Assembly (NCBI GenBank): GCA_018175075.1
Contig: GCA_018175075.1_4100.1
Origin: a phage
Direction: 5' to 3' (one strand)
Length of the DNA stretch: 64,000 nucleotides
The notes under the pieces are model-generated. The model was not told where the DNA came from, searched no databases, and was given only the letters and a program-made list of their open reading frames with translations. Every line of letters starts with the position of its first letter. Positions within the stretch are counted from its first letter, which is position 1. Position numbers and translations under genes: made by a program. Below, piece after piece: positions 46,751 through 59,009 of the stretch.

Positions 46751-46978
46751 ATGGCTATTATCATTACTCGCGTATCTGGTACTACTGGCAACGAACAAGT
46801 AGTTGCAGTCATTACCAACAAGGAAGGTGCGGAATTGCAAAATGCAATGAATACCTGGGCCGTTAATGAGTTCGGTCAGTGGGCAAGTGTAGCATACATT
46901 GAAACCTATCAAGTGCCGTCGATTAGTTTAACTGATTTGGGCGTTGAGCGTATCCTTTGCCTTGATGAATTAAATTAA
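46751..46978 (+). CDS. hypothetical protein
   Basis: 75 aa from MAIIITRV; track start is a -10 box artefact. Confidence 0.65.
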   Translation: MAIIITRVSGTTGNEQVVAVITNKEGAELQNAMNTWAVNEFGQWASVAYIETYQVPSISLTDLGVERILCLDELN

Positions 46979-47064
46979 AAAAGTACTTGCAAAGTAAATC
47001 GAATAAAGTATAATACATTACATCAAGGGGAGAAAATGGTTCTCCCCACTACAAGGAAACTAAA

Positions 47065-47208
47065 ATGAAAACTTGTCAATGTGGTCAGAAATCTATTACT
47101 GGTTTAAAGCGGGGCGTTGCTCTTTGCCAGTACCATTATAATTTACAAGTATGGGGTAAAGAATGGGCCGACCAGGTGGAAGCAGCAAAGAAAGCAAAAA
47201 GTAAGTAA
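47065..47208 (+). CDS. 47-aa Cys-rich small protein
   Basis: below track cutoff; promoter+hairpin+AAGGA SD; MKTCQCGQ...ALCQYH. Confidence 0.5.
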   Translation: MKTCQCGQKSITGLKRGVALCQYHYNLQVWGKEWADQVEAAKKAKSK

Positions 47209-47268
47209 AAATATTATCACAGTACTATTGACATAGTTTGATAGTACTGGCATAATAGATTTTATCAA
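47207..47268 (+). repeat. type-2 ~60-bp promoter repeat
   Basis: AAAATATTATCACAGTACTATTGACATAGTTTGATAGTACTGGCATAAT..; TTGACA-N17-CATAAT. Confidence 0.6.
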
Positions 47269-47287
47269 AACAACTGAGGAAAATAAA

Positions 47288-47500
47288 ATGGCTATCATCA
47301 CTAAAATCAAAGTTAACAAGACTATCGTTAAACTGGCAGAAGTGAAAGAAGGTTATAAAGTATCTTGGTGCGGTATGTATCGGACGTTCGCAGATATAGA
47401 TGATGCAATCAATTACTACACTGACACGGTTAAAAACTTTGTTCGTGCTGATGTGGTTATGGCAGTGGCAACATATAAAGCAGCGAAAGAAAGTAAGTAA
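47288..47500 (+). CDS. hypothetical protein (paralog of 50419..50598)
   Basis: MAIITKIKVNK...; type-2 promoter repeat upstream. Confidence 0.65.
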   Translation: MAIITKIKVNKTIVKLAEVKEGYKVSWCGMYRTFADIDDAINYYTDTVKNFVRADVVMAVATYKAAKESK

Positions 47501-47560
47501 AAATATTATCACAGTACTATTGACATAGTTTGATAGTACTGGCATAATAGATTTTATCAA
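47499..47560 (+). repeat. type-2 ~60-bp promoter repeat
   Basis: near-identical to 47207 copy, including the upstream gene's last codons (AGTAAGTAA). Confidence 0.6.
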
Positions 47561-47589
47561 GACAACATATTAATTTAAGGAATACAAAA

Positions 47590-47913
47590 ATGGCTAAAAC
47601 TATCATTAACACCGTTTCCCTGGCTGCAATCCGTGCAATCAATGTTGACGGTAAACGTTGGACTGATTCATATGGCAATACTTATCATTCTTGTCATGTA
47701 AGCGTTGAACTGGATAACGGTTTGAATGATCTGGCGGTTGAATCATTTACTTATGGCTATGAAGATGCATATCAACAAACGGCGTTATCTCTCTTAAAGG
47801 AATCAGTAGACGGGCTTAATACTGATGAAACCTCCCTTACTCGTTTGTGTAATGATTTGTCTATCCCGTTGCATTGTACTGTACAGAATGTTAAACGCAA
47901 AAAAGATCTTTAA
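47590..47913 (+). CDS. hypothetical protein (paralog of 54412..54735)
   Basis: DGKRWTDSYGNTYHSCHVS...FTYGYEDAY...VKRKKDL. Confidence 0.7.
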   Translation: MAKTIINTVSLAAIRAINVDGKRWTDSYGNTYHSCHVSVELDNGLNDLAVESFTYGYEDAYQQTALSLLKESVDGLNTDETSLTRLCNDLSIPLHCTVQNVKRKKDL

Positions 47914-47993
47914 TTAGCTTTACTTTATGCAGATACTTTGATATAGTGTCTGCATAGGGGAAAGAAATTAAATTAACTTAAGAGGATCGTATA

Positions 47994-48263
47994 ATGAAAA
48001 ATATCAGTACTTTAATCGACGCAGGTACACATGTTCGGCGGTCTATGGTTGCAACCAGTACTACAAAACAAGTAGCGAGCGGTTATCTTGTATTTGTGCA
48101 CGATGGTAAACTCCTGGAACGTTCAATCAATTTTGATGTTAAAAACAATTGCCGTTTTATTATCTTTAAGCGTGAACAATATAAAATCGATTTGCCAGCA
48201 AAGCCCATTAGCGGGGCGTACAACGTGCAATCATTGTTTGAGCGTCAACCTTACACCTATTAA
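47994..48263 (+). CDS. hypothetical protein
   Basis: 89 aa; AGAGGA SD. Confidence 0.6.
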   Translation: MKNISTLIDAGTHVRRSMVATSTTKQVASGYLVFVHDGKLLERSINFDVKNNCRFIIFKREQYKIDLPAKPISGAYNVQSLFERQPYTY

Positions 48264-48314
48264 TCAAAACATCGTTAGCGGTCGTTTTAGGCCGCTTATA
48301 TTGGGGATTATACC

Positions 48315-48587
48315 ATGAACGTTAATCAAGTACTGAATGAGATCGAAAGCATCATTAAACCGATGAAGCGTACTGATGCTATGTTAACACCGGAAGAATG
48401 CCGCCTTTATGAGCGTTACAGCGTCGAACAAGTCCAGGCAATGGCTATGGCTACCCCAGCCGTTAAACCGCCTGAGAATGCGTTACAGGACGTTACAGGG
48501 GATTATATCATCAATCCAGTACTAGGGAAGATGGCTGCAATCACCGAAGATCAACAAGACTACTTAAGCCAGTACTTAAAAGGTTAA
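48315..48587 (+). CDS. hypothetical protein
   Basis: 90 aa. Confidence 0.6.
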   Translation: MNVNQVLNEIESIIKPMKRTDAMLTPEECRLYERYSVEQVQAMAMATPAVKPPENALQDVTGDYIINPVLGKMAAITEDQQDYLSQYLKG

Positions 48588-48592
48588 TTAAT

Positions 48593-48802
48593 ATGCTTAC
48601 TGTACAGGATAAGATCGACATCTTAAAGGTTAATATGTATGTGATTGATGCAGTACCTGGTAAAGTATTTGCATACGATGACACCACTGTAAGCGATTTC
48701 TACTATAGCCAGGCCGTGGGGGATCTTTCTGTACAGTCGGTTATTGAAAACGTAGTTAATGCAGCGTATGAGCATTTACTTTCAAATAGTACTTGCAATT
48801 AG
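48593..48802 (+). CDS. hypothetical protein
   Basis: 69 aa; last codons (STCN*) double as the next -35 region. Confidence 0.6.
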   Translation: MLTVQDKIDILKVNMYVIDAVPGKVFAYDDTTVSDFYYSQAVGDLSVQSVIENVVNAAYEHLLSNSTCN

Positions 48803-48871
48803 TTTTTAAACGCGTATAATGTTTTACATGAAGGGGAGAAATGATTCTCCCCACTAATTAAGGAATATGAA

Positions 48872-49018
48872 ATGAAAGCATCAAAAAAGAGTACTAACAA
48901 GAAAGCACGTTCAACCTTAGATGGGGTATTCCCTTTACGTTTCGTTGATGAAGTGGTTTCCTACCCGCCTGGCCTTACTCCTGAGATGGTAGAAAGTTTG
49001 CGTAAATCTAAAAAATAG
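48872..49018 (+). CDS. 48-aa basic small protein
   Basis: below track cutoff; promoter+GGGGAGAA/TTCTCCCC hairpin+AAGGA SD. Confidence 0.5.
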   Translation: MKASKKSTNKKARSTLDGVFPLRFVDEVVSYPPGLTPEMVESLRKSKK

Positions 49019-49021
49019 TAC

Positions 49022-49081
49022 TTGCAATTAGTTTTTAGTACTGTATAATGTTTTACATGAAGGGGAGAAATGATTCTCCCC
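49022..49081 (+). promoter_or_regulatory. mini-gene promoter + 5'UTR hairpin unit
   Basis: TTGCAA-N16-TGTATAATGTTTTACAT + GGGGAGAA-ATGA-TTCTCCCC. Confidence 0.6.
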
Positions 49082-49099
49082 AATAACAGGAGAAACAAA

Positions 49100-49252
49100 A
49101 TGAAACAATACAACGCTCGGTTTGATGTTACTATCGGTAACGGCAAAGGTCAATTCTCTTTCAGTACTCGCCGCAGTTATACAGAAAACTTCCTGCGTAA
49201 TTGTGCACTGACCGCCGCACAAATTAAACATTACTTTCAGGCTAAAAAATGA
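49100..49252 (+). CDS. 50-aa small protein
   Basis: start MKQYNARF after promoter+hairpin; track start is an artefact. Confidence 0.55.
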   Translation: MKQYNARFDVTIGNGKGQFSFSTRRSYTENFLRNCALTAAQIKHYFQAKK

Positions 49253-49338
49253 AATCATTAGCTTATTACAGTTCGGCCCTGGTCGGTGCATTGATCGCGG
49301 CATTGTTAGTAACCTATCTATTCTTTATGGTGATTTAA
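49249..49338 (+). CDS. 29-aa single-pass membrane peptide
   Basis: ATGA coupling; MKSLAYYSSALVGALIAALLVTYLFFMVI. Confidence 0.4.
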   Translation: MKSLAYYSSALVGALIAALLVTYLFFMVI

Positions 49339-49473
49339 ATGAATCCTAACGGTATAATTTACAGTACTCCTAAAACGAAAGCAGACAAGGTAAACGCTAA
49401 AAAAGCGAAAGTAAAGGAGTACATCAAGCAAGGCATGACGCGAAAGGCCGCAGTACTTAAAGCTAAAAAATAA
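49339..49473 (+). CDS. 44-aa Lys-rich small protein
   Basis: ATG directly after upstream TAA; followed by hairpin-promoter at 49484. Confidence 0.4.
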   Translation: MNPNGIIYSTPKTKADKVNAKKAKVKEYIKQGMTRKAAVLKAKK

Positions 49474-49483
49474 ATGAAAAAAG

Positions 49484-49570
49484 TGGTTGACTTCGGTCAG
49501 CCATTTTGCTATTATATATTCATTGAGAGATAGCTCACTAGCCCACAGGGTGCGGAAGTGTATCTATTAT
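49484..49570 (+). promoter_or_regulatory. fused terminator-promoter hairpin + GGGTGC-core element, copy 6
   Basis: TGGTTGAC-TTCG-GTCAGCCA; TTGACT-N17-TATTAT; ..UGAGAGAUAGCUCA..GCCCACAGGGUGC. Confidence 0.55.
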
Positions 49571-49687
49571 ATAAGTATTGAGTACTGAAAACTATTTTTA
49601 AAAAGTACTTGCAAACTATCTCAATAGGCGTATAATGTTTTACATCGAAAGGGGAAACGGTTTCCCCTGGTAATAAGGAAACAAATC

Positions 49688-50029
49688 ATGACTATTGCAA
49701 TTGCTCAATCTAACTTTGAAAATGAAATCATCGCTCAGACACTGCGTTTAAGTGATGGTCGGGCCGAAATTAATTACGGTTTCAATTCAGGCGGTTGTGA
49801 AAAATATCAGTACTTTGTAACGGCTGATGGCGGTGTCCTGGGTATCAATACAGTTATTGTAAACATACAGAAAATTAATTTCAATGATCCAGACGATAGC
49901 CAGTTTTACATCACAGGCGTAGACGTGAACTATGAGGATGACTCACTAACTGATGATCACACTGGCGAGCGGTTAGAAAGTGCATACGGTGAAGATGATT
50001 ATCAGTCCGGTCCAGAAGATTTCGAATAA
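49688..50029 (+). CDS. hypothetical acidic protein
   Basis: 113 aa; promoter+hairpin+AAGGA SD. Confidence 0.65.
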   Translation: MTIAIAQSNFENEIIAQTLRLSDGRAEINYGFNSGGCEKYQYFVTADGGVLGINTVIVNIQKINFNDPDDSQFYITGVDVNYEDDSLTDDHTGERLESAYGEDDYQSGPEDFE

Positions 50030-50122
50030 TATAAAAAATAGTTTGACAATAGATTATAGTACTGTATAATAGTTTACATCAAGGGGAGAAATGATTCTCC
50101 CCACTAACAGAGAGAAAACAAA

Positions 50123-50335
50123 ATGGCTAATATCTGCACTGTACTGAAAAATGCAAAACAAGTTTTATTTTCTGATCACGATCATTTAAACAAGGATATT
50201 ACTGGCGTTCGGAATATCAAAGATGTAAAAAGTGTTATGGGTATCTATTGCAATATGAAACGTGTTGGAACGTTCGGCGACAAAGTACTATACCAGGCAG
50301 GGGATTACAATTTTACACTGACTATCATTAACTAA
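50123..50335 (+). CDS. hypothetical protein
   Basis: 70 aa; promoter+hairpin. Confidence 0.65.
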   Translation: MANICTVLKNAKQVLFSDHDHLNKDITGVRNIKDVKSVMGIYCNMKRVGTFGDKVLYQAGDYNFTLTIIN

Positions 50336-50395
50336 AAATATTATCACAGTACTATTGACATAGTTTGATAGTACTGACATAATAACTTTTATCAA
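50334..50395 (+). repeat. type-2 ~60-bp promoter repeat
   Basis: same repeat; -10 CATAAT. Confidence 0.6.
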
Positions 50396-50418
50396 CTACA
50401 CTACTAAGGAATTAAAAA

Positions 50419-50598
50419 ATGGCTATCATCGCAAAAACTGAAATCGTTGGTCTGGATTCTATCATCATGACGTTTGAAGATCAAAAAGGTATGTATGTAG
50501 TTTCATATGGTGATTATGTTCGGGAGTATGAAACGGTAGACGAAGCCTTTGAAAGTTATATTCGCCAGGTGAATAAAGCATACGACGACTACCGCTAA
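50419..50598 (+). CDS. hypothetical protein (paralog of 47288..47500)
   Basis: 59 aa, below track cutoff: MAIIAKTEIVG...; type-2 promoter repeat. Confidence 0.55.
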   Translation: MAIIAKTEIVGLDSIIMTFEDQKGMYVVSYGDYVREYETVDEAFESYIRQVNKAYDDYR

Positions 50599-50655
50599 AA
50601 TATATTACCAGTACTATTGACAACGTTTGATAGTACTGTATAATAAGTTTTATAA
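50597..50655 (+). repeat. type-2 promoter repeat (variant)
   Basis: ..CCAGTACTATTGACAACGTTTGATAGTACTGTATAAT. Confidence 0.55.
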
Positions 50656-50688
50656 ACAGTAGTTAACTTAACCTAAGAGAGAAATAAA

Positions 50689-50832
50689 ATGATCGCACTG
50701 GATTCATTCATCGACGCAGTACTGGCAAAAACTGGCGAGGATCTGACCGCAGAACAATACGCAATGATCGAGCAATGCCAGCAAGACGGTAAATCGGTGA
50801 AAGATACTGTTAAGATTATCCGCAAGATGTAA
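50689..50832 (+). CDS. 47-aa small protein
   Basis: below track cutoff; AGAGAG SD-like; MIALDSFIDAVLAKTG... Confidence 0.45.
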   Translation: MIALDSFIDAVLAKTGEDLTAEQYAMIEQCQQDGKSVKDTVKIIRKM

Positions 50833-50937
50833 TATTATAGCCCACTGGTTAACGCTGGTGGGCTTTAATTCATTACCCTATACAATGCCAGTACTAAACC
50901 GTTTATCTCGTTAGAATGCATTACAGGACGTTTGACA

Positions 50938-51135
50938 ATGATTAGCATGAAATCAGTACAAAAACAAATAGAAACATTATCAAAAATTAAACGTAAACAG
51001 TACTCGTTAGAATATACAATCAATGGTAACTATCATCTAATGAAAGAAAATAATTTTATAGTCATTGATGAATCATTGCAAATCATTAGTATAGTACTGA
51101 AAGCATTAATTAATGATAGAAAAAAATTAAAATAA
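50938..51135 (+). CDS. hypothetical protein
   Basis: 65 aa from first ATG; atypically AT-rich; weak signals. Confidence 0.35.
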   Translation: MISMKSVQKQIETLSKIKRKQYSLEYTINGNYHLMKENNFIVIDESLQIISIVLKALINDRKKLK

Positions 51136-51139
51136 TCTA

Positions 51140-51235
51140 TTGACAATATCCTCCAGTACTGGCATAATACTTACATCAAGACGAGAACGTCACTAACCCA
51201 TAGGGTGCACAAATGTAACTATATAACATCGATCA
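51140..51235 (+). ncRNA. GGGTGC-core RNA element, copy 7 (with promoter)
   Basis: TTGACA-N17-CATAAT then ..GACGAGAACGUC..ACCCAUAGGGUGCACAAAUGUAACUAU. Confidence 0.35.
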
Positions 51236-51303
51236 ATAAATGATCAAAAAAGTACTGGATCAATTTAGCATAAGGCGTATAATTCTGATCAATTCTTGAT
51301 CAA
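51231..51303 (+). promoter_or_regulatory. GATCAA cluster around a promoter (operator / Dam-site candidate)
   Basis: five GATCAA in 73 bp; TATAAT at 51278-83; palindrome TGATCAATTCTTGATCA at 51286-51302. Confidence 0.45.
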
Positions 51304-51464
51304 AGGCAATATACGCAGTTGAATTTATATAGACAGTACAAAGGCGTTACTATCCGTGGTAATGCTGGTGGATATGTAGTATCATGTGGTTTGAATAAGA
51401 TTAGCACTAGTAGTATTATTGTAGCATTACAGTACTATAGTATTTTTATAATGAGGTTAAAATA

Positions 51465-51722
51465 ATGGCAGTAGGATACGCGAAAGACGGGGCCGAACAA
51501 GACGAGATTAACGCAGTGATTCAGGCCGCCGTTAACCACGCTAGAAAGCAAATTAACGCACAAAGAGAATCACTAGTACATTGCCTCGACTGCGGCGATA
51601 AAATCCCTGAGAATCGACGCCAGGCCGTTATAGGGTGCATGTATTGTATTACTTGCCAGGCGGATCATGATAGTACTTTTAAAAGAGATCCGCGTAATTG
51701 TTGGCATAGATCTATGAGATAA
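51465..51722 (+). CDS. TraR/DksA-family C4 zinc-finger protein
   Basis: CLDCGDKIPENRRQAVIGCMYCITCQ = CxxC-N17-CxxC with the IPxxRR motif. Confidence 0.8.
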   Translation: MAVGYAKDGAEQDEINAVIQAAVNHARKQINAQRESLVHCLDCGDKIPENRRQAVIGCMYCITCQADHDSTFKRDPRNCWHRSMR

Positions 51723-51786
51723 AAAGTAATTGACAGTACTGAAAGATAGTGTATAATGTTTTATATCTTAAATGAGGATAGAAATC

Positions 51787-52143
51787 ATGGGAATACAACA
51801 TATCACGCGTACTACTGACAATGGCGAGATCACTGGTTATCAGGTACAGGGCAAAGTAGCACAATTGCAGTACTGGTTTGTTAAACGTGGAATCATTGCA
51901 CCGGATCTTGATTATGACCGTGTTGCTTTCATTGATTCTCTTTATGTTGATCCTGATAGTCGGGGCAATGGTGAAGGTAACGAATTAATGAATGCCTTTA
52001 TCGATGCCGCCGATGATTCAGATTGTATCATCTTAGAATGCGATACGGGAGAAGATAACGCCTTTAATCTTAAAGAATGGTACGAAGGTTTCGGATTCGA
52101 GGTATTGATAGATAGTGAATATCCTATCATGATTTTATCATAG
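51787..52143 (+). CDS. GNAT-family N-acetyltransferase
   Basis: YVDPDSRGNGEGNELMNAFID (motif A-like), WYEGFGFE; GAGGA SD. Confidence 0.7.
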   Translation: MGIQHITRTTDNGEITGYQVQGKVAQLQYWFVKRGIIAPDLDYDRVAFIDSLYVDPDSRGNGEGNELMNAFIDAADDSDCIILECDTGEDNAFNLKEWYEGFGFEVLIDSEYPIMILS

Positions 52144-52215
52144 TACTTGCATTTAGTTTTCAGTACTGTTATAGTACTTACATCAAGGGGAAACATCTTC
52201 CCCTACTAAGAGGAA

Positions 52216-52410
52216 ATGAAAATGGAAAACTTATCAAGTATTTTAGTACAAGATGATTTCGGTAATCCTGGAAGTGCTATCATAGTTCGGGGCAATAAAG
52301 CAACGTTTGTTATTGCTGGTGGACCCGTACAGCGTAGCATTAAAAATAATGCTGTTACCATTAATAATGTACGCTATCGCTTAGATAAAGAATTAATTCA
52401 TAAACTGTAA
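52216..52410 (+). CDS. hypothetical protein
   Basis: 64 aa (or start 52222); promoter+GGGGAA/TTCCCC hairpin. Confidence 0.6.
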   Translation: MKMENLSSILVQDDFGNPGSAIIVRGNKATFVIAGGPVQRSIKNNAVTINNVRYRLDKELIHKL

Positions 52411-52437
52411 TATTAATTTAATAGAGGATAACAATAA

Positions 52438-52761
52438 ATGTACATTCATACTACTATCACAAAGGAAGTCCGTTGCCAGTTCGAAAGTATTCCGGGCGTA
52501 TGTTTCATCACTGGTACGTTTTCCCCTGGTGATCGTGATAATCCAGTACTGTTACAATTACGCCATCCATCATGGGATAAAGCATTTGATCTACCGTTGA
52601 ATGAATTCGCAACTACTGCTGAAAAGTACATTAAAAATATTCGCGAGAATGATCGACTATTCATTAATGCTTTTAGTGATTCCGCGTTAAGCGAGATCCA
52701 CGGTGTATTGGTTGCAATCATGGAATCAATGGAGAAAACTAAATTCAAACAAGGTGAATAA
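52438..52761 (+). CDS. hypothetical protein
   Basis: 107 aa; AGAGGA SD. Confidence 0.65.
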   Translation: MYIHTTITKEVRCQFESIPGVCFITGTFSPGDRDNPVLLQLRHPSWDKAFDLPLNEFATTAEKYIKNIRENDRLFINAFSDSALSEIHGVLVAIMESMEKTKFKQGE

Positions 52762-52844
52762 AAACTATTGACAAGATAATCTAGTACTGTATAATAAGTT
52801 ACATGAAGGGGAGAAATGATTCTCCCCACTGAGAGGAAAGAAAA

Positions 52845-53057
52845 ATGCAAGGTCAACTAATCGTTCGTAAATGGTCTGATACTAACGCTAAACCGTGGGA
52901 TGTACAATACATCGGCCCCAATGGTGAATCCAGATATCAACCAGGTGTAACGCATAGTACTGAGCAATTCGCCGCCGCTCATCGTGAACGTCTGTTACAA
53001 TCAATGCAGCAAGGTTCCGGTGAAAAATTCATTCAGGATCATTGGCTGAAAGATTAA
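52845..53057 (+). CDS. hypothetical protein
   Basis: 70 aa; promoter+hairpin+GAGAGG SD. Confidence 0.65.
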   Translation: MQGQLIVRKWSDTNAKPWDVQYIGPNGESRYQPGVTHSTEQFAAAHRERLLQSMQQGSGEKFIQDHWLKD

Positions 53058-53143
53058 AAAGTACTTGCACAGTACTGAATAAAGTGTATAATGTTTTATA
53101 TCGGAAGGGGAATAGTTCCCCTCCCAACAAAGAGGAAAGTATA

Positions 53144-53317
53144 ATGATCCAAGTAGAATTATCAGTACTGAAAGATCTGTTTTATCGGTTAGGTACTAAT
53201 GGCGAGTATCCTAAAAGTGATACCGCAAAACTTTTTGTATCACTCGACTTATGGCAACGCGAACAATTAGTAATGTCCTGGCGTAAAGGTAAAGCAGATC
53301 GCGAGGTGAAAGCATGA
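53144..53317 (+). CDS. hypothetical protein
   Basis: 57 aa from MIQVELSVL; promoter+hairpin. Confidence 0.55.
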   Translation: MIQVELSVLKDLFYRLGTNGEYPKSDTAKLFVSLDLWQREQLVMSWRKGKADREVKA

Positions 53318-53463
53318 AAGAATTCTTATTCGAAGTAGTGTTTCAAGGTGTCGGTAGTAACCAACTGATTCGATCAAGTGGTTACAATGTCAACCAGGCA
53401 TGGAATAACATTAAACAAATGTACCCGAACGCTATCACCTATCGCAACCCGAAAGAAGTTTAA
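53314..53463 (+). CDS. 49-aa small protein
   Basis: ATGA coupling; MKEFLFEVVFQGVGSNQ... Confidence 0.45.
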   Translation: MKEFLFEVVFQGVGSNQLIRSSGYNVNQAWNNIKQMYPNAITYRNPKEV

Positions 53464-53477
53464 AAATAATTGAAAAA

Positions 53478-53560
53478 GGGATTGACTCCGGTCAGTCCCT
53501 TTGCTATTATATACGCATAGAAACAAATCAGCCCACCGGGTGCATAAATGTATCTATTGT
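53478..53560 (+). promoter_or_regulatory. fused terminator-promoter hairpin + GGGTGC-core element, copy 8
   Basis: GGGATTGAC-TCCG-GTCAGTCCC; TTGACT-N17-TATTAT; ..GCCCACCGGGUGC.. Confidence 0.55.
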
Positions 53561-53600
53561 TTGCTGGTGGCTAGTACTGAAAACTATTTTAAAAAAGTAC

Positions 53601-53744
53601 TTGCATTGTACTTAGAATAAAGTATAATGTTTTACATCAGGACGGGGAACGAAACAAGTAACCCCGTTAAGTAGTCCAGGAGTAAGACATACGAAAAACT
53701 CCCCTGATAAAATAGTTTGACAATAGAAAGTAAACGAGTATAAT
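53601..53744 (+). ncRNA. conserved ~80-nt leader RNA L2 between tandem promoters
   Basis: near-copy of L1 with ACGGGG/CCCCGU stem variant; downstream gene unrelated to that of L1. Confidence 0.4.
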
Positions 53745-53777
53745 ACTCACATCAACCACTGATAAGGAAACATAAAA

Positions 53778-54053
53778 ATGCGGATTCTACTGACAGCTAA
53801 CGAAATCGAACAAGTACTGACTACTAACCTGGAAGACTGGAAACGTGAAGCAGATATCCAGGCGGTTCAACAGCTTAACGATGAGTTAACGCCGGATGAC
53901 TTAAGCAAGATTGTAGATCCTCAATTCTACGAAGATATCCACGACACCGCGTTAAGCGTCGAGGATGTACTAGATAAGCACTACATTGATATTGATTTGC
54001 AGGTTTACGGTCGTAAAAACTTTATCACTATTCACGACATTTACAATAATTAA
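53778..54053 (+). CDS. hypothetical acidic protein
   Basis: 91 aa; tandem promoters + conserved leader upstream. Confidence 0.65.
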   Translation: MRILLTANEIEQVLTTNLEDWKREADIQAVQQLNDELTPDDLSKIVDPQFYEDIHDTALSVEDVLDKHYIDIDLQVYGRKNFITIHDIYNN

Positions 54054-54056
54054 GTA

Positions 54057-54118
54057 TTGACAAAGTATCTTAGTACTGTATAATAGTTTACATCGAGTGA
54101 GGGGAAACGGTTCCCCTC
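54057..54118 (+). promoter_or_regulatory. mini-gene promoter + 5'UTR hairpin unit
   Basis: TTGACA-N16-TGTATAAT + GAGGGGAA-ACGG-TTCCCCTC; near-identical copy at 54328-54390. Confidence 0.6.
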
Positions 54119-54141
54119 CTAACAAAGAGAGAGAAATAAAA

Positions 54142-54324
54142 ATGGCTAAGTGCACTATCTGCAAGAAAGAAATAGTATTAGTTCCAAGTGCCCGTGAACG
54201 TGCCGCTCGGTTCGGTGGCAAAGCGTCAGACTATACAAAAATGTTTACTACCCATGCAGCTTGCCAGGTAGCAAAACGTTCACAAGAAAGCGTAGAATTA
54301 ATGCGTAAACTTTCCAAAAAATAA
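54142..54324 (+). CDS. small Cys-containing protein (possible Zn ribbon)
   Basis: MAKCTICKKEIVLVP...THAACQV; promoter+hairpin. Confidence 0.6.
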   Translation: MAKCTICKKEIVLVPSARERAARFGGKASDYTKMFTTHAACQVAKRSQESVELMRKLSKK

Positions 54325-54411
54325 GTATTGACAAAGTATCTTAGTACTGTATAATAGTTTACATCAAGTGAGGGGAATGGTTCCCCTCCTAACTAAAAGA
54401 GAGAAATAAAA

Positions 54412-54735
54412 ATGGCTATGATCCTTGCCCAGAAAGTAGAATTGAAAATTGTAACCTCATTTGACATTAACGTTAATCGGTGGACTGATTCACACGGCAA
54501 TACTTACCACTCTTGCTACGTGTCTGCGTTAATTGGCGACCGCTGGGAAGACCTGGGACATGAAACCTTTACATACGGTTACGGCACACAAGGCGAATAC
54601 ACGGGCTTGGAGATCATTAAAGAAACCGTTATAGGTTTCAACCCGAAAGAAAAAGTTATTCACCAAATCGAAAAAGAGATTAACAAAGAAATAACAGTTC
54701 GATACAACGATGTAAAACGTAAGAAAGACATGTAA
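54412..54735 (+). CDS. hypothetical protein (paralog of 47590..47913)
   Basis: NRWTDSHGNTYHSCYVS...FTYGYGTQ...VKRKKDM. Confidence 0.7.
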   Translation: MAMILAQKVELKIVTSFDINVNRWTDSHGNTYHSCYVSALIGDRWEDLGHETFTYGYGTQGEYTGLEIIKETVIGFNPKEKVIHQIEKEINKEITVRYNDVKRKKDM

Positions 54736-54830
54736 TAGAATCCATTTAAAGTACTATTTGACATTGCCCAGATAGTACTTTATAATAGACTCTAACTTGT
54801 AGTACTAACTTAACTAATAGGATGTATACC

Positions 54831-55226
54831 ATGATTACTAAATTCTACGCTACCCGTGAAGCTGCCCGTATTGTTGCACGCGAGGAAGGAGCAGCATTTA
54901 AAGACATGGGCAAAGATGCACCGAAAGGCCAACGCTGGGCCGTACAGTTCAAAGAGATCTCTGATATTGTGAATTCACCTGAGCCAGTACTAACAGCAGC
55001 AGAACTAAAACGAGCGGATATGCTGGCGGCAATACTTGACGCACAAGATGAGTTTATCGCTGGTTCTGATATCAAAGTACAGGTAAACCACACCGCATGG
55101 ACTCACGCGGATCACCTGGCAAACCTTAAGCGTCCAAGTGAACTGATTCGCAACCAGAAAGAGATCCGACATGATCGTAAGGGTAATCGTGTAACAGTAT
55201 ACAGTAAACGCCGCCAGGTTATCTAA
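54831..55226 (+). CDS. hypothetical protein (paralog of 41555..41818)
   Basis: MITKFYATREAARIVAREEGAAFKDMG...DRKGNRVTVYSKRR. Confidence 0.65.
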   Translation: MITKFYATREAARIVAREEGAAFKDMGKDAPKGQRWAVQFKEISDIVNSPEPVLTAAELKRADMLAAILDAQDEFIAGSDIKVQVNHTAWTHADHLANLKRPSELIRNQKEIRHDRKGNRVTVYSKRRQVI

Positions 55227-55248
55227 TAACTTGCAGTACTAACAACAC

Positions 55249-55273
55249 GGCGGGATCAGTTCCCGCCTTTTTT
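55249..55273 (+). terminator. intrinsic terminator
   Basis: GGCGGGA-TCAG-TTCCCGCC + T6. Confidence 0.7.
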
Positions 55274-55287
55274 ATAGGACAAACAAA

Positions 55288-55542
55288 ATGATTAAGGTTC
55301 AACTATATAAAGATAACATCTTACGGGTACACTATAAAGCACCTCAGAGAATCATCACAAAGGCCGTACAGCTTGCTAATGAGTTTATTAATGGTAACCT
55401 ATTACCTAGGAAGTTAAGCAACGGGAAACTGCGTGTAATCGACGTGGACACTAACAACAGGATAGTAATCGAGAACACAGGAAAGATAAACCTTTATGAG
55501 CATCAACAATACAATAAGAAAATAAAACTAATATCACGTTGA
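55288..55542 (+). CDS. hypothetical protein
   Basis: 84 aa; follows terminator at 55249. Confidence 0.6.
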   Translation: MIKVQLYKDNILRVHYKAPQRIITKAVQLANEFINGNLLPRKLSNGKLRVIDVDTNNRIVIENTGKINLYEHQQYNKKIKLISR

Positions 55543-55595
55543 CAGTACTCAAATGTTTTAGTACTATGTACACATACCAACACGGGAGAAACAAA

Positions 55596-55814
55596 ATGAA
55601 ATTATCTAAAATCGAAAAGAAAACTATTGATGAAGCAGTTAAGCACGGTTATACCTTTCGTAATGATTCACATTTTACCAATTTTCAACAAGGGTATCGT
55701 ACTATTAAAAAACTAATTGACAAAGGTTTATTAGTTGAAGTCAATAACGGTAACGGTATCGAGTATCAACCAACACAAGACGCATTTTATTTTAAGAAAT
55801 ATAATATTATCTAA
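55596..55814 (+). CDS. hypothetical protein
   Basis: 72 aa from MKLSKIEKK; TTGACA-N17-TACTAT promoter at 55540. Confidence 0.6.
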   Translation: MKLSKIEKKTIDEAVKHGYTFRNDSHFTNFQQGYRTIKKLIDKGLLVEVNNGNGIEYQPTQDAFYFKKYNII

Positions 55815-55872
55815 TTGACAGTACTCAAATGTTTTAGTACTATATGTACATACCAACACGGGGAGAAACAAA

Positions 55873-56115
55873 ATGATTACTTTAGAAAAACGTATCAAAG
55901 AAACTACATCGCTGGTGGAACTGTTAACAGTACTGAAATGTAAAACAACACCATTCAGCACGCCGGACTTTATTAATATGGTTGATGTTAATGGTCGCTA
56001 TCGTATCACGGTCGTGAATGGTGCGGCGAAAGTATTCAGTACTAAAAACACTAAGGAAGTGATCCACGCCGTTAATGTTAAAAAAGTAGTTGCCATTGAT
56101 AGTAAAGTACTGTAA
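55873..56115 (+). CDS. hypothetical protein
   Basis: 80 aa; near-identical copy of the 55540 promoter upstream. Confidence 0.6.
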   Translation: MITLEKRIKETTSLVELLTVLKCKTTPFSTPDFINMVDVNGRYRITVVNGAAKVFSTKNTKEVIHAVNVKKVVAIDSKVL

Positions 56116-56146
56116 GATAGTTTCATTAACTCAAGGAGTAAATGCA

Positions 56147-56731
56147 ATGCGTAATTATACTAAATTCATCCGTACACTGTCAGAAATGGAAACCAACAAA
56201 GAGATCCTTTCAGCTTGTCGGTTAGCTGGCCTGGAGATCATCGGGGCGGGATCTTCCCGTATAGTTTTCGCTTTAAATGATCGGTTAGTGATTAAGGTCG
56301 CGAATTGTGATGCGGGTGTAGAACAAAATGAAACTGAATGTAAGGTATGGAATTTTTTAGACTATGACCGCCCTCAGTTGAAACAGTACTTTGCAAAGGT
56401 GCATATGCATTTATGCGATCCTGATAATATGTTTATCGTTATGGATCGGTTGAGTACTGCAAGCAAAGGCAGTGTGAAGCACGTTAACGCGTGCAATGAA
56501 TTAAAGTACAATATTAAACGTAATGCAATCGAACGCCAGCACCGCTTTGCTGATGCACTACAACACGTTGATGATACATTATCAACACTAACGATAAGAG
56601 ATATCAGAAAACAGAATATCGGCCAGGATCGTAATGGACTTATTAAAGTACTTGATTACGGTTTAACCCGCAATATCTGGAATCAGTACTATAAAAAGCG
56701 TGATGTAGCAGCAAGTAAGGTAACACGATAA
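56147..56731 (+). CDS. protein-kinase-like protein (mini-kinase 3)
   Basis: IIGAGSSRIVF...LVIKVA; RDIRKQNIGQDRNGLIKVLDYG; AAGGAG SD. Confidence 0.55.
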   Translation: MRNYTKFIRTLSEMETNKEILSACRLAGLEIIGAGSSRIVFALNDRLVIKVANCDAGVEQNETECKVWNFLDYDRPQLKQYFAKVHMHLCDPDNMFIVMDRLSTASKGSVKHVNACNELKYNIKRNAIERQHRFADALQHVDDTLSTLTIRDIRKQNIGQDRNGLIKVLDYGLTRNIWNQYYKKRDVAASKVTR

Positions 56732-56745
56732 AAAAGATTAAAAAA

Positions 56746-56832
56746 GGGATTGACTCCGGTCAGTCCCTTTGCTATTATATATTCATTGAGAGATAACTCA
56801 CTGACCCATAGGGTGCATAAGTGTATCTATTA
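56746..56832 (+). promoter_or_regulatory. fused terminator-promoter hairpin + GGGTGC-core element, copy 9
   Basis: same hairpin; TTGACT-N17-TATTAT; ..UGAGAGAUAACUCA..ACCCAUAGGGUGC. Confidence 0.55.
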
Positions 56833-56953
56833 TATAAGTATTCAGTACTGGAAACTATTTTTAAAAAGTACTTGCATTGTACTTAGAATCAAGTATAATG
56901 TTTTATATCGAGAGGGGGAAATGGTTCTCCCTGGTACATTAAGGAATAAAATC

Positions 56954-57175
56954 ATGACTACAATGACTTGCATTCACGCTTCAAACCTGCTTAATGATGC
57001 GGCCTTTAATGTTGATTCAGAATATCAATGTTATCGGGATGAAAATAAAAAAGTTTTTGTAGTTGATAATAATGGTTTCCATATTGAATTACAATCCGGC
57101 TTCACTGGTGTTGATGGTAAATCAGTATGGGGCGTACAGGATGATAAAGGTACATATCATTTTAAACGTAATTAA
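56954..57175 (+). CDS. hypothetical protein
   Basis: 73 aa from MTTMTCIH; the long track ORF runs through the regulatory module. Confidence 0.6.
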   Translation: MTTMTCIHASNLLNDAAFNVDSEYQCYRDENKKVFVVDNNGFHIELQSGFTGVDGKSVWGVQDDKGTYHFKRN

Positions 57176-57261
57176 GTATTGACAAAGTATATCAGTACTG
57201 TATAATAGTTTACATCAAGGGGAGAATAGTTCTCCCCACACCAATAAAAGGAAACAAAATT

Positions 57262-57534
57262 ATGTCCAGCTACTCCGCTACTATGATCATTAAAGATATG
57301 AACGGTAATCCTACTTCTGCTGGTGGATCATTTGGAAACATTAATTTAGATGGTCGGTTATCCATGCAATCAGCCATTGATGCAGCTAAAGAAGTTTTTA
57401 AGAATGAATGTACTGTAAGCAAGCTGGATTATATGGGATTCGCTATCGAGAAAACTAATCGTTTTGTGAACTACAAAAAGCCTATGATGATTGATACTAA
57501 CCTGAAAGCTAACGAAGTGGAATACTTATTATGA
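57262..57534 (+). CDS. hypothetical protein
   Basis: 90 aa; promoter+hairpin. Confidence 0.65.
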   Translation: MSSYSATMIIKDMNGNPTSAGGSFGNINLDGRLSMQSAIDAAKEVFKNECTVSKLDYMGFAIEKTNRFVNYKKPMMIDTNLKANEVEYLL

Positions 57535-57722
57535 CAGTAGAAGAAGTTAAAAAAGTACTGGCAGTACTACGCTATCATAATCATTGTAAGGTGAAGAATG
57601 ATCCTGATTATCTTGATTCATCCCTGGAGGAAGACACCTTAAACGCGATAAGCTATATGCAAACATTAGCAAAGCGTATGACCGAAAAGAATAGGCCGGA
57701 CTATATAGGAAATAAAATTTAA
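57531..57722 (+). CDS. hypothetical protein
   Basis: 63 aa; ATGA coupling. Confidence 0.6.
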   Translation: MTVEEVKKVLAVLRYHNHCKVKNDPDYLDSSLEEDTLNAISYMQTLAKRMTEKNRPDYIGNKI

Positions 57723-57809
57723 AAAGTACTTGCATTGTAGTTAGATTAACGTATAATGTTTTATATCGAGAGGGGGAAATGGTTTCCCCTCAAGTCCAGG
57801 AGATACACC

Positions 57810-58073
57810 ATGAACACTATCGAAATCACTATCAATGCACACGTATACGACAACGTAGTACTGCAAACTACTATGACCGCTAATGATACCAGTACTTTGC
57901 GGAATACTGTTATTAGTGCCGTATGTGCTGCAATCGGTGATGTCGCCCTGGAAAATGCAAAACACGTAAACGATGGTTTCACTATGTGCAAACGTGATAA
58001 CGCAAAACATATCATCGTGGAAGGTTACGGCGGTGTAGAATTTAATGTTTATATGAAAAAAGTACTTGCATAA
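57810..58073 (+). CDS. hypothetical protein
   Basis: 87 aa from MNTIEITI; 3' end (KKVLA*) overlaps the next -35. Confidence 0.65.
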   Translation: MNTIEITINAHVYDNVVLQTTMTANDTSTLRNTVISAVCAAIGDVALENAKHVNDGFTMCKRDNAKHIIVEGYGGVEFNVYMKKVLA

Positions 58074-58140
58074 TAACTAAAACAAAGTATAATGTTTTGC
58101 ATAGGGGGAGATATCCTCCCCCACTAAAAGGAGTAATAAA

Positions 58141-58365
58141 ATGGCTAACTTTGATGAACTGATGCGGGAAGTAGCTACCCTGGCAGAAGAGAAGAAATCA
58201 TTCGATTCTATCTATAACACCGCTCACCGTGATTCAGTACTGGCATGTACTCAGGATCAAAAAGATGAACTAATCGCCACCTATCATGAAGCATGGAAGT
58301 ACTACCGCCAATGGGAGAAAGAAGAAAGCGAGTCTACCATCAACGGCATCAATAATCTAATCTAA
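58141..58365 (+). CDS. hypothetical protein
   Basis: 74 aa; promoter+GGGGGAG/CTCCCCC hairpin. Confidence 0.65.
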   Translation: MANFDELMREVATLAEEKKSFDSIYNTAHRDSVLACTQDQKDELIATYHEAWKYYRQWEKEESESTINGINNLI

Positions 58366-58371
58366 AAGTTT

Positions 58372-58425
58372 TATTTCAGTACTATTGACATAGCTTGATA
58401 GTACTGATGTAATAACTTTACTAAC
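58372..58425 (+). repeat. type-2 promoter repeat (variant)
   Basis: ..TCAGTACTATTGACATAGCTTGATAGTACTGATGTAAT. Confidence 0.55.
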
Positions 58426-58441
58426 TACAAGGGGAAACATC

Positions 58442-58699
58442 ATGGAACAATTCACACAATATCGGGTAAATCCTCAAGCTATGGCCTACGTAGAAGACCA
58501 TAAAACGTTACCAGTACTGCAACCAGTTAAAGGCCATATCTATCGTGGCCTTGCCTGGGATACGGCCCAGGATGGATATAAAACCGTCGCAGTGGGGATG
58601 TATTGCGGGAATGGTGAATGGTTTGATCCTAACAATCCGATTGCACTTGACAGTACTGAAAAAATGAAATGGGCCGACTACATCGAAGATATTTCATAA
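58442..58699 (+). CDS. hypothetical protein
   Basis: 85 aa; type-2 promoter repeat upstream. Confidence 0.6.
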   Translation: MEQFTQYRVNPQAMAYVEDHKTLPVLQPVKGHIYRGLAWDTAQDGYKTVAVGMYCGNGEWFDPNNPIALDSTEKMKWADYIEDIS

Positions 58700-58789
58700 A
58701 AACTATTTGACAGTACTAACCAGTAATGTATAATGTTTTACATAGAGCGGGGGAATAGTTCTCCCGCCAATAGTTTGGAGTAAAACATT

Positions 58790-58990: not shown

Positions 58991-59009
58991 CAAAAAAAGA
59001 ATAAAAAAA

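What the first reader, a model, noticed from the sequence alone, without database searches (positions are those of the whole stretch)
47207..58425. Five copies of a ~60-bp promoter repeat that includes the preceding gene's stop region
AAAATATTATCACAGTACTATTGACATAGTTTGATAGTACTGGCATAATAGATTTTATCAA occurs at 47207, 47499 and 50334, with variants at 50597 and 58372. At 47207 and 47499 the repeat extends into the upstream coding ends (..AAAAGTAAGTAA / ..GAAAGTAAGTAA). Downstream genes include a paralog pair (47288 / 50419). This behaves like a portable expression cassette, consistent with cassette-mediated gene shuffling.
Basis: seen in the sequence. Interest (0 to 1): 0.3.

Follow-up and report, generated by a model that had tools for sequence, protein, structure and literature searches.

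The report
Promoter cassettes that shuffle jumbo-phage genes
The five repeats are copies of one strong, palindromic early promoter in the ~21 kb terminal repeat of a jumbo coliphage, and comparison with related phages shows small genes being gained, lost and swapped between such promoter copies, as already described for T4-type phages.

Summary
The 61-nt repeat is exact at 47208 and 47500, has 3 mismatches at 50335, and has diverged copies at 50587 and 58355 (none expected by chance).

The window comes from an Asteriusvirus-type jumbo coliphage (121Q/PBECO4 group). All five copies lie in its direct terminal repeat (window 39039-60492). There, about 45 consensus sigma70-type promoters each precede a small gene of unknown function. 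The five copies are one sub-class: TTGACA-N17-CATAAT with an extended -10, embedded in an imperfect palindrome (CAGTACTAT...ATAGTACTG) that encloses the -35 box.

Relatives support the cassette-shuffling idea:
- G17 has one copy where the window has copy-gene-copy, a clean 292-bp indel.
- phAPEC6 has a different gene behind copy 1.
- Copy number varies from 3 to 5 per terminal repeat, and some copies are patchworks of others.
- An unrelated Vequintavirinae phage carries the same gene flanked by the repeat, with different neighbours.

This matches the PeSL "mobile regulatory cassettes" of T4-type phages, so it is a new member of a known kind. The claimed paralog pair is at best remote.

Unexplained: AGTACT, the core of the palindrome arms, is 10-24-fold over-represented, with sharply bounded AGTACT-free islands.

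The parts
39039..60492 (+). Direct terminal repeat (DTR) of the phage genome, collapsed to one copy in this assembly. It is a region of small early-type genes, each with its own promoter cassette.
   Evidence: the tandem second copy in JP4 starts opposite window 39039 and the first copy ends opposite 60492. BF17 record position 1 aligns to 39039 and G17 record position 1 to 60492. Published DTR sizes are 20.7-21.5 kb (PMC13070987, PMC11895373, PMC6563267).
47198..47274 (+). D12 copy 1: -35 TTGACA 47228-47233, 17-nt spacer, TGg-CATAAT -10 at 47251-47256. Palindrome arms are CAGTACTAT and ATAGTACTG. It drives gene C.
   Evidence: 11/12 consensus match plus TG; fold -16.8 kcal/mol, z -4.8.
47288..47500 (+). 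Gene C (70 aa, phrog_35559, function unknown): the cargo between copies 1 and 2. It is present in about half of the Asteriusvirus-type genomes.
   Evidence: Absent from G17, CMSTMSU and phAPEC6.
47490..47566 (+). D12 copy 2 (99% identical to copy 1): -35 at 47520-47525, -10 at 47543-47548. It drives gene D (47590-47913, 107 aa, phrog_6246).
47065..47208 (+). Gene B (47 aa, Cys-rich), upstream of copy 1. Absent from JP4 and SD-6_S16, where the deletion breakpoints lie at the start codons (47067|47277) and not in D12.
50325..50401 (+). D12 copy 3: -35 at 50355-50360, -10 CATAAT at 50378-50383. It lies between gene 50123-50335 and gene 50419-50598.
50587..50663 (+). D12 copy 4 (diverged): -35 at 50617-50622, 16-nt spacer, -10 TATAAT at 50639-50644. 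It drives gene 50689-50832 (47 aa).
   Evidence: 12/12 consensus match.
58355..58431 (+). D12 copy 5 (diverged): -35 at 58385-58390, -10 TGTAAT preceded by TGa at 58408-58413. It lies between gene 58141-58365 and gene 58442-58699. Its sequence is the same in all relatives checked.
48786..49071 (+). A second promoter-gene-promoter unit: class-A cassettes at 48786-48842 and 49015-49071 (91% identical) flank gene 48872-49018. The unit is missing in 121Q and SD-6_S16, with a 72-nt junction overlap in 121Q.
54040..54386 (+). A third promoter-gene-promoter unit: cassettes at 54040-54115 and 54311-54386 (89% identical) flank gene 54142-54324. One unit is missing in JP4, 121Q and phAPEC6, with a 103-108-nt junction overlap.
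49477..49527 (+). Example of the class-D composite terminator/promoter: a GGTTGACT-TCGG-TCAGCC hairpin containing the -35 box, then TTTTGC and TATTAT. Further copies are at 53472, 56740 and 59004, and outside the DTR.
   Evidence: D11/D16; -15.9 kcal/mol; called terminator-like.

Best explanation
Each repeat is a strong host-RNA-polymerase (sigma70) early promoter. It sits directly after the stop codon of one small gene and 28-44 nt before the start codon of the next. It lies inside the ~21.5 kb direct terminal repeat of an Asteriusvirus-type jumbo coliphage.

The promoter is built into an imperfect palindrome. The arms CAGTACTAT and ATAGTACTG enclose the -35 box, and an outer TATTAT/ATAATA helix is followed by UUUU. 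On read-through RNA from the upstream gene this can form a stem-loop.

The same 60-95 nt cassette recurs between unrelated genes, in one orientation and one register. It therefore provides homology for the phage's recombination system. Exchanges between copies delete, insert or replace the gene(s) between them, and every gene that moves arrives with a working promoter.

Shown here: the anatomy, the conservation, the polymorphisms bounded by the cassettes, the patchwork copies and the occurrence across phage lineages. Inferred: promoter activity, any terminator or attenuator role of the stem-loop, and recombination rather than selection alone as the cause of the breakpoint pattern.
For: Promoter:
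- 11-12 of 12 consensus positions, plus TG in register for copies 1-3.
- Fixed geometry: stop codon to -35 is 18-19 nt, and -10 to ATG is 28-44 nt.
- Both hexamers are conserved out to Erwinia phage Hallingskeid (9 copies) and Klebsiella phage Muenster.

Stem-loop:
- -16.8 kcal/mol, z = -4.8, with 0 of 200 shuffles as stable.
- The arms are invariant while the loop varies.
- One A7_1 copy has AGCGCT/AGTGCT arms that keep the pairing (T-A to C-G; A-T to G.U on the sense strand).

Recombination:
- There is a clean 292-bp indel between copies 1 and 2 in G17 (95-nt overlap).
- In all, 7 of 28 events have 72-108 nt of junction overlap, and 6 of those overlaps consist of promoter cassette.
- The three most similar adjacent promoter pairs (0.93, 0.85, 0.77) are all indel-polymorphic, against 4 of 39 others.
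- Near-identical promoter pairs flank unrelated genes in 4 of 4 cases.
- Copy 3 of 121Q combines parts of copies 2, 3 and 4, and copy 3 of phAPEC6 carries the -10 of copy 4.
- Cargo diverges while flanks stay conserved. Gene C is 84-98% identical against 95-100% for the D12 flanks. g50123 is 72% identical in G17 and Ecwhy_1, next to g50419 at 98-100%.

Portability:
- In Vequintavirinae phage A7_1, gene C is flanked by D12 on both sides but has different neighbours. It is 90% identical to the window's copy, closer than 121Q's copy at 84%.
Against: - Breakpoints are enriched in promoter cassettes relative to the whole region (15 of 52 against 11% expected, p = 3e-4). They are not significantly enriched relative to non-coding DNA alone (15 of 29 against 37%, p = 0.12). 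Selection against gene-disrupting deletions could therefore explain much of the pattern.
- Most events (about 19 of 26 inside the DTR) have little or no junction homology. One of these is the loss of gene B next to copy 1, whose breakpoints lie at the start codons.
- The simple terminator scan does not call the D12 hairpin. It has too few G-C pairs, and the U-run follows only the outer helix.
- The covariation evidence for the stem is a single sequence.
- No expression data were available.
- The test on adjacent promoter pairs rests on 3 pairs, with a threshold chosen after seeing the data (Mann-Whitney p = 0.07).
Confidence: 0.7

Rival explanations
1. Functional constraint only. The copies look alike because each must be a very strong promoter carrying the same regulator-binding palindrome. 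Indels arise by random illegitimate deletion or insertion. Only those that remove or add whole gene units survive, so breakpoints pile up between genes without the repeats playing any mechanistic role.
For: - Among non-coding breakpoints, promoter cores are not significantly enriched (p = 0.12).
- About 19 of 26 events in the DTR have junction homology of 14 nt or less.
- The arms and hexamers are invariant across genera, which shows strong purifying selection.
Against: - Identity between copies 1 and 2 runs 77-95 nt at 99%. It covers the spacer, the upstream AT-rich segment and the first part of the 5' UTR, which no promoter function requires, while orthologous genes differ by 2-28%.
- Seven events have 72-108 nt of junction overlap. 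This is what recombination between repeats leaves behind.
- Patchwork copies require exchange between copies.
Confidence: 0.2
2. The palindrome is primarily an operator. The two AGTACT boxes, 22 bp apart centre to centre and bracketing the -35 box, bind a dimeric phage (or host) protein that switches early promoters off or on. The repeat is a regulatory site and its recombination is incidental. This is compatible with the best explanation as an added function.
For: - AGTACT sits at fixed offsets in all promoter classes: -27, -7/-8 and -30 relative to the start of the -10 box.
- Both boxes overlap core promoter elements and are invariant in three jumbo-phage genera while the spacer varies.
- AGTACT is the most over-represented hexamer in the region (143 observed against 6.9 expected).
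Against: - 58 of the 143 sites lie inside coding sequence, in all three frames. The motif is also ~10-fold enriched far from promoters, so it is not promoter-specific.
- The A7_1 variant changes both boxes while keeping the pairing, which favours structure over sequence-specific binding (n = 1).
- No candidate binding protein was identified.
Confidence: 0.3
3. A simple, recent local duplication in this one genome, with no general significance.
For: Copies 1 and 2 are 292 bp apart and 99% identical.
Against: - The repeat occurs in 50 phage records from four lineages, at 3-5 sites per terminal repeat.
- The genes following the two copies are unrelated (Smith-Waterman 19 against 24 +/- 4 for shuffles).
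- The copy-gene-copy arrangement itself is shared by BF17, Ecwhy_1, 121Q and A7_1.
Confidence: 0.02
4. An autonomous or non-autonomous mobile element (MITE-like, or a homing-endonuclease target) that inserts itself between genes.
For: The element is a short palindrome present in many copies and in unrelated phages.
Against: - It is always in one orientation and one register relative to the stop codon and the start codon.
- There are no target-site duplications.
- It has full promoter anatomy.
- No transposase or endonuclease gene travels with it.
Confidence: 0.03

Closest known systems
PeSLs (promoter-early stem-loops), the 'mobile regulatory cassettes' of T4-type phages (Arbiol et al. 2010, PMC2839356; Comeau et al. 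2014, PMC4122927)
   Same: - A ~60-100 nt intergenic motif that starts at the upstream stop codon in an AT-rich stretch.
- A consensus sigma70 early promoter with a stem-loop placed around or over the -35 or -10 box.
- An SD and start codon of a small ORFan gene at the 3' end.
- Dozens of copies concentrated in a plastic region.
- Indels and replacements between close relatives bounded by the motifs, including the 'gene flanked by two PeSLs versus a single PeSL' topology.
   Different: - The host phage is a Rak2-like jumbo phage, not a Tevenvirinae-type phage.
- The cassettes fill the long direct terminal repeat rather than internal hyperplastic regions.
- The D12 stem is AT-rich and built from a genome-wide hyper-abundant word (AGTACT), instead of polyG/polyC.
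- Terminator activity and mini-circles are untested here.
- The same cassette plus cargo also occurs in an unrelated subfamily (Vequintavirinae).
Terminal-repeat early regions of other large virulent phages: the T5 pre-early (first-step-transfer) region and the SPO1 host-takeover module (from my own knowledge)
   Same: A long direct terminal repeat packed with small genes of unknown or host-takeover function, each behind its own strong host-polymerase promoter.
   Different: No sequence relationship was tested. Neither two-step DNA transfer nor any host-takeover activity is shown for these genes.
RpoD-like early promoters with UP-like elements predicted in the Rak2-like phage CBB (Buttimer et al. 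2017, PMC5259590)
   Same: The same phage group. Consensus sigma70 promoters with AT-rich upstream elements cluster on short hypothetical early genes, some of them in the terminal repeat.
   Different: That paper reports 18 promoters from MEME. It does not describe the palindrome, the AGTACT boxes, promoter sub-classes, or any role in gene gain and loss.
Integron gene cassettes (attC / attI)
   Same: Single small genes are exchanged as units at short, imperfectly palindromic, repeated boundary sequences.
   Different: Integron cassettes are promoterless and are moved by a dedicated integrase acting on folded attC. Here each boundary is itself a promoter, no integrase is present, and general homologous recombination is the inferred agent.

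Membership tests
PeSL (promoter-early stem-loop) cassettes | Consensus sigma70-type early promoter with an AT-rich upstream segment | tested here: met
   TTGACA-N17-CATAAT with TG (11/12) for copies 1-3, and TTGACA-N16-TATAAT (12/12) for copy 4. The upstream segment is AAAATATTAT.
PeSL (promoter-early stem-loop) cassettes | A stable stem-loop within or overlapping the promoter | tested here: met
   A 12-bp stem encloses the -35 box, with an additional outer helix. Energy is -16.8 kcal/mol, z = -4.8, and 0 of 200 shuffles are as stable. The arms are conserved in 4 lineages.
PeSL (promoter-early stem-loop) cassettes | The stem-loop acts as a transcription terminator or attenuator | tested here: inconclusive
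   The simple terminator scan does not call D12. A UUUU run follows the outer helix by 2 nt. A reporter assay is needed.
PeSL (promoter-early stem-loop) cassettes | Intergenic position, from the stop codon of one small ORFan to the SD/ATG of the next, with many copies in a plastic region | tested here: met
   Stop codon to -35 is 18-19 nt and -10 to ATG is 28-44 nt. About 45 cassettes lie in 20 kb. The eight cargo genes with a PHROG match (gene B had none) fall in PHROG families of unknown function.
PeSL (promoter-early stem-loop) cassettes | Indels and replacements between close relatives bounded by the motifs | tested here: met
   The G17 single copy against the window's copy-gene-copy. Seven events have 72-108 nt of junction overlap. 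Cargo genes are replaced as alleles. Caveat: enrichment over other non-coding DNA is not significant (p = 0.12).
PeSL (promoter-early stem-loop) cassettes | Formation of encapsidated mini-circles by recombination between neighbouring cassettes | not testable with these tools
   Requires outward-facing PCR or long reads from phage DNA.
PeSL (promoter-early stem-loop) cassettes | Host phage is a T4-type myovirus | tested here: not met
   The window is Asteriusvirus-type. Rak2-like phages are only distant T4 relatives (PMC5259590). This is a taxonomic limit of the original description, not a mechanistic feature.
Terminal-repeat early / host-takeover module (T5 pre-early, SPO1) | Located in the long direct terminal repeat | tested here: met
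   The DTR maps to window 39039-60492, and all five copies lie inside it.
Terminal-repeat early / host-takeover module (T5 pre-early, SPO1) | Genes expressed first after infection and acting on the host | not testable with these tools
   No expression or functional data. Eight of the nine genes adjacent to D12 copies match a PHROG of unknown function and gene B matches none.

The most novel reading that the evidence does not exclude
AGTACT forms the core of both arms of the promoter palindrome and sits at fixed positions in all promoter classes. It may be a lineage-wide recognition word for an unidentified DNA-binding or DNA-modifying factor of Rak2-like jumbo phages. It is 17-24-fold over-represented in the terminal repeats of Escherichia, Erwinia and Klebsiella jumbo phages and about 10-fold elsewhere. 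It occurs in all three codon frames, and it falls to zero in sharply bounded islands of 4-7 kb that start exactly at the right end of the terminal repeat. If so, the promoter palindromes would be one use of a genome-wide marking system (early-gene shut-off, self-recognition or chromosome organisation). The AGTACT-free islands would then be domains exempt from it, or recent imports.
Probability: 0.25. Interest if true: 0.65.

Novelty: new member of a known kind. Interest (0 to 1): 0.35.

Why it matters
It extends the PeSL idea from T4-type phages to the terminal repeats of Rak2-like jumbo phages. In that idea, repeated promoter/stem-loop cassettes both express small accessory genes and serve as the joints at which those genes are shuffled. 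The same cassette and cargo also occur in an unrelated coliphage subfamily. This gives a concrete, testable route by which virulent phages trade early, probably host-takeover or anti-defence, genes that arrive ready to be expressed. It also explains why the terminal-repeat region is the most variable part of otherwise collinear Asteriusvirus genomes. Practically, it offers a set of compact, very strong E. coli promoters and flags about 55 small early genes for functional screens. The finding itself is not surprising to a phage genomicist. The AGTACT enrichment noticed alongside it is the less expected part.

Tried and rejected
- **IMG/VR scan.** A scan for the repeat core returned only one genome (121Q). 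That collection was no use for comparison, so I used the GenBank phage collection instead.
- **Paralog check.** BLASTP of the claimed paralogs gave no alignment. I then used a Smith-Waterman shuffle test and PHROG assignment, and the pair is at best remotely related.
- **Rfam.** At E <= 0.1 over the whole DTR, only two sub-threshold chance-level hits appeared. No known RNA family explains the repeats.
- **Terminator scan.** It does not call D12, so I do not claim terminator activity.
- **5'-UTR hairpin alignment.** RNAalifold on a MAFFT alignment of the class-A/B 5'-UTR hairpins gave a blurred consensus because the alignment is not structure-aware. I rely on the per-sequence perfect stems listed, and I do not quote covariation statistics for them.
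- **Breakpoint enrichment.** It is significant against the whole region but not against non-coding DNA alone. I therefore do not use it as evidence of mechanism.
- **CMSTMSU.** I excluded this record (UNVERIFIED, apparently frameshift-rich) from the event counts.
- **Rejected readings.** A tandem gene duplication origin fails because the flanked genes are unrelated. A transposon-like element fails because of the fixed orientation and register and the absence of target-site duplications.

Full report
**Observation.** None is expected in 100 dinucleotide-preserving shuffles. The repeat finder places five copies in one register (family D12): 47198-47274, 47490-47566 (99%), 50325-50401 (86%), 50587-50663 (61%) and 58355-58431 (71%). 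The same output shows that these five are a small part of something much larger. Families of 24, 18, 16 and 14 promoter-like repeats lie on the + strand between 39.4 and 59.6 kb.

**Source and setting.** The region is 95-97% identical to Asteriusvirus-type jumbo coliphages (BF17, JP4, Ecwhy_1, G17, phAPEC6, 121Q and others).
- The JP4 record carries the region twice in tandem. The BF17 and G17 records begin at its two ends.
- This maps the direct terminal repeat (DTR) to window 39039-60492.
- That fits the published DTRs of about 20-21.5 kb, determined by read coverage, PhageTerm and restriction digests (PMC6563267, PMC11895373, PMC13070987).
- All five copies lie inside the DTR, which is collapsed to one copy in this assembly.

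**Anatomy.** A consensus scan and feature map find about 45 sigma70-type promoters in the DTR. Almost every one starts 3-20 nt after a stop codon and lies 20-56 nt upstream of an SD and ATG of a small gene. There are four classes:
- **Class A:** AAAGTACTTGCA-N16-TATAATGTTTTACATC, followed by a G+C-rich 5'-UTR hairpin.
- **Class B:** TTGACA...AGTACTG-TATAAT, followed by the same kind of hairpin.
- **Class C (the finding):** cAGTACTaTTGACA-N8-gatAGTACTGg-CATAAT, with a 17-nt spacer, TG in extended -10 register, and no 5'-UTR hairpin.
- **Class D:** an intrinsic-terminator hairpin (GGGTTGACT-TCGG-TCAGCCC-TTTT) whose stem contains the -35 box, followed by TATTAT.

The class-C element is itself an imperfect palindrome. 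As RNA it folds into a 12-bp stem around the -35 box plus an outer TATTAT/ATAATA helix, followed by GAUUUUAU. The energy is -16.8 kcal/mol and z = -4.8, with no shuffle as stable. The simple terminator scan does not call it.

**Distribution.** The 77-nt repeat is found in 50 phage records:
- all Asteriusvirus-type genomes, at 3-5 sites per DTR copy;
- Erwinia phage Hallingskeid;
- the Klebsiella RaK2/K64-1/Muenster group, where it lies in a PhageTerm-predicted terminal repeat;
- three Vequintavirinae coliphages (A7_1, A5-4, W70).

Hallingskeid's DTR has nine class-C promoters with identical arms and variable loops, and Muenster has at least two. This is a conserved promoter class of Rak2-like jumbo phages, not a peculiarity of this genome.

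**Test of the shuffling idea.** I chained alignments of window 38.5-61 kb to seven relatives and found 28 distinct indel or replacement events, mostly of one or two genes.

For the five copies themselves:
- G17 (and CMSTMSU) has gene B - one D12 - gene D, where the window, BF17, Ecwhy_1 and 121Q have B - D12 - C - D12 - D. The single G17 copy aligns to both window copies with a 95-nt overlap, a clean 292-bp difference.
- JP4 and SD-6_S16 lack gene B and copy 1, but their breakpoints lie at the start codons (47067|47277), with only 14 nt of overlap.
- phAPEC6 keeps copy 1 but has a different 114-aa gene behind it, in place of C - D12 - D.
- Copy 3 of 121Q is a patchwork. It combines copy 3's upstream part, copy 4's spacer, the -10 of copies 1/2 and copy 2's 5' UTR. 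Copy 3 of phAPEC6 carries copy 4's -10.

For other cassettes:
- The class-A pair at 48786/49015 and the pair at 54040/54311 show the same behaviour. One unit is missing in relatives, with 72 and 103-108 nt of junction overlap.
- G17 and Ecwhy_1 carry an extra gene between duplicated copies of the 57179 cassette (101-nt overlap).
- In all, 7 of 28 events have 72-108 nt of junction overlap, and 6 of those overlaps consist of promoter cassette.
- The three adjacent promoter pairs with the highest mutual identity (0.93, 0.85, 0.77) are all indel-polymorphic, against 4 of 39 others.

The promoter pairs are not remnants of tandem gene duplication. In all four cases tested, the genes behind the two copies are unrelated.

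Cargo alleles are exchanged independently of their neighbours:
- Gene C is 84-98% identical between genomes, while its D12 flanks are 95-100% identical.
- g50123 is 72% identical in G17 and Ecwhy_1, next to g50419 at 98-100%.

**Cross-lineage evidence.** In Vequintavirinae phage A7_1, a block of homologues of the DTR genes occurs in a different order. There, gene C is flanked by D12 on both sides. Upstream lies a homologue of the window's 50123 gene, which in the window precedes copy 3. Downstream lies a homologue of the 43235-43504 gene, which in the window has a class-A promoter. A7_1's gene C is 90% identical in DNA to the window's copy, closer than 121Q's (84%). Gene C occurs in only three Vequintavirinae records but in about half of the Asteriusvirus-type genomes. 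AGTACT is not enriched in the A7_1 locus (2.5-fold against 17-24-fold). Both points suggest transfer from a jumbo phage into the A7_1 lineage. The D12 copy upstream of C in A7_1 has AGCGCT and AGTGCT in place of the two AGTACT boxes. These changes keep the stem paired on the sense strand. This is a single instance of covariation, in favour of a structural role.

**Limits.** Of the 52 breakpoints inside the DTR, 37 lie within -42 to +95 of a -35 box. That interval is essentially the intergenic DNA plus the gene start. Against non-coding DNA alone the enrichment in promoter cores is not significant (15 of 29 against 37%, p = 0.12). Survivorship of gene-sparing deletions therefore explains part of the pattern. 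The case for recombination rests instead on the junction overlaps, the patchwork copies and the conserved-flank, divergent-cargo pattern. Promoter activity, terminator activity and mini-circles are untested.

- *Extension into the upstream coding ends.* This holds for 11 nt (AAAGTAAGTAA) at copies 1 and 2. But gene B in A7_1 ends AAAAGTAATTGA in front of a different promoter. Most of the shared string is therefore B's own sequence, and at most the last few bases were converted.
- *Paralog pair 47288/50419.* No BLASTP alignment is found and the two fall in different PHROG families. The Smith-Waterman excess is only modest once the shared MAII start is removed (p ~0.01). A7_1 carries homologues of both genes.

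**Comparison with what is known.** The closest described system is the PeSL of T4-type phages (PMC2839356, PMC4122927). A PeSL is a strong sigma70 early promoter combined with a stem-loop placed between, over or next to the hexamers. It starts at the upstream stop codon and ends at the SD/ATG of an ORFan. It is concentrated in plastic regions and bounds the indels between close relatives, including the 'gene between two PeSLs versus one PeSL' topology. All sequence-level features are met here. Terminator activity is inconclusive and mini-circles are untestable. The host phage is a Rak2-like jumbo phage rather than a T4-type phage, and the cassettes fill the terminal repeat. The literature I could search on these jumbo phages reports the DTR and, for CBB, RpoD-like promoters with UP elements on early genes (PMC5259590). 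It does not report this architecture or its role in gene turnover. I file the finding as a new member of a known kind.

**Unexplained.** AGTACT, often as CAGTACTG, is the most over-represented hexamer in the DTR.
- Counts: 143 observed against 6.9 expected in the DTR, and about 10-fold enriched in 1-38 kb.
- In the DTR it sits at fixed offsets in the promoters, but 58 sites lie in coding sequence, in all three frames.
- It is 17-24-fold enriched in every Asteriusvirus DTR, in Hallingskeid and in Muenster.
- Its density falls from about 7 per kb to zero exactly at the right DTR boundary, in the window and in all relatives covering it.
- In BF17, AGTACT-free islands of about 4 and 7 kb alternate with rich segments.
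- I found no published account of this.

Noticed in passing
whole window; boundary at 60492; BF17 locus L012: AGTACT (core (C)AGTAC(T/A)) is 10-24-fold over-represented genome-wide in Rak2-like jumbo phages. It occurs in all codon frames. It drops to zero exactly at the right end of the terminal repeat (window 60.5-64 kb, and the same in phAPEC6, SD-6_S16 and BF17). In BF17, AGTACT-free islands of ~4 and ~7 kb alternate with rich segments.
   Followed up: partly
window 42192-42230, 49530-49560, 51185-51215, 53520-53555, 56790-56822, 59050-59086: There are six copies of a conserved motif, RCCCAYMGGGTGC...TGTAT, about 45-60 nt downstream of promoters that have no ORF behind them (mostly the class-D terminator/promoters). 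These may be short non-coding transcripts. No Rfam family matches.
   Followed up: partly
window 39816-39943: An array of about 16 head-to-tail 8-bp units (NGANGGCT) lies in a 1.7-kb non-coding stretch, about 0.8 kb inside the left end of the terminal repeat. It could be a packaging or replication site.
   Followed up: no
window 20000-38000, minus strand: At least ten tandem ~1.2-kb paralogous genes share conserved 5' ends (MLPFxxM..KYGNI), each with the same upstream region and a CAGTAC-containing terminator. Relatives annotate them as RCC1-like 'regulator of chromosome condensation', and their number differs between genomes.
   Followed up: partly
window 40700-59650, about 22 sites (e.g. 50082-50101): Class-A/B promoters are followed at about +10 by a perfect 5-8 bp G+C-rich hairpin. 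Its stem sequence differs from copy to copy (GGGGAGAA/TTCTCCCC, GCGGGGAA/TTCCCCGC, GTGGGGAA/TTCCCCAC and others) and no U-run follows. It looks like a conserved mRNA 5'-end structure rather than a terminator.
   Followed up: partly
window 47590-47913 and 54412-54735: These two 107-aa genes are clear paralogs (..NRWTDSYGNTYHSC.V...FTYGY...VKRKKD). Each sits behind the second copy of a duplicated promoter pair.
   Followed up: partly
window 60560-63791 (and the arrays left of the DTR in JP4 L001:3630-8421 and G17 L003:1-3853): Arrays of 60-85-aa genes have overlapping stops and starts and no individual promoters. The array right of the DTR is AGTACT-free, whereas the arrays left of the DTR in relatives are AGTACT-rich.
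   Followed up: partly
window 42168-42196: This class-C-like promoter (TTGACT-N17-CATAAT) has different 5' arm letters (TGCCGGTA...TACTGGCA) but still forms a stem around the -35 box.
   Followed up: no
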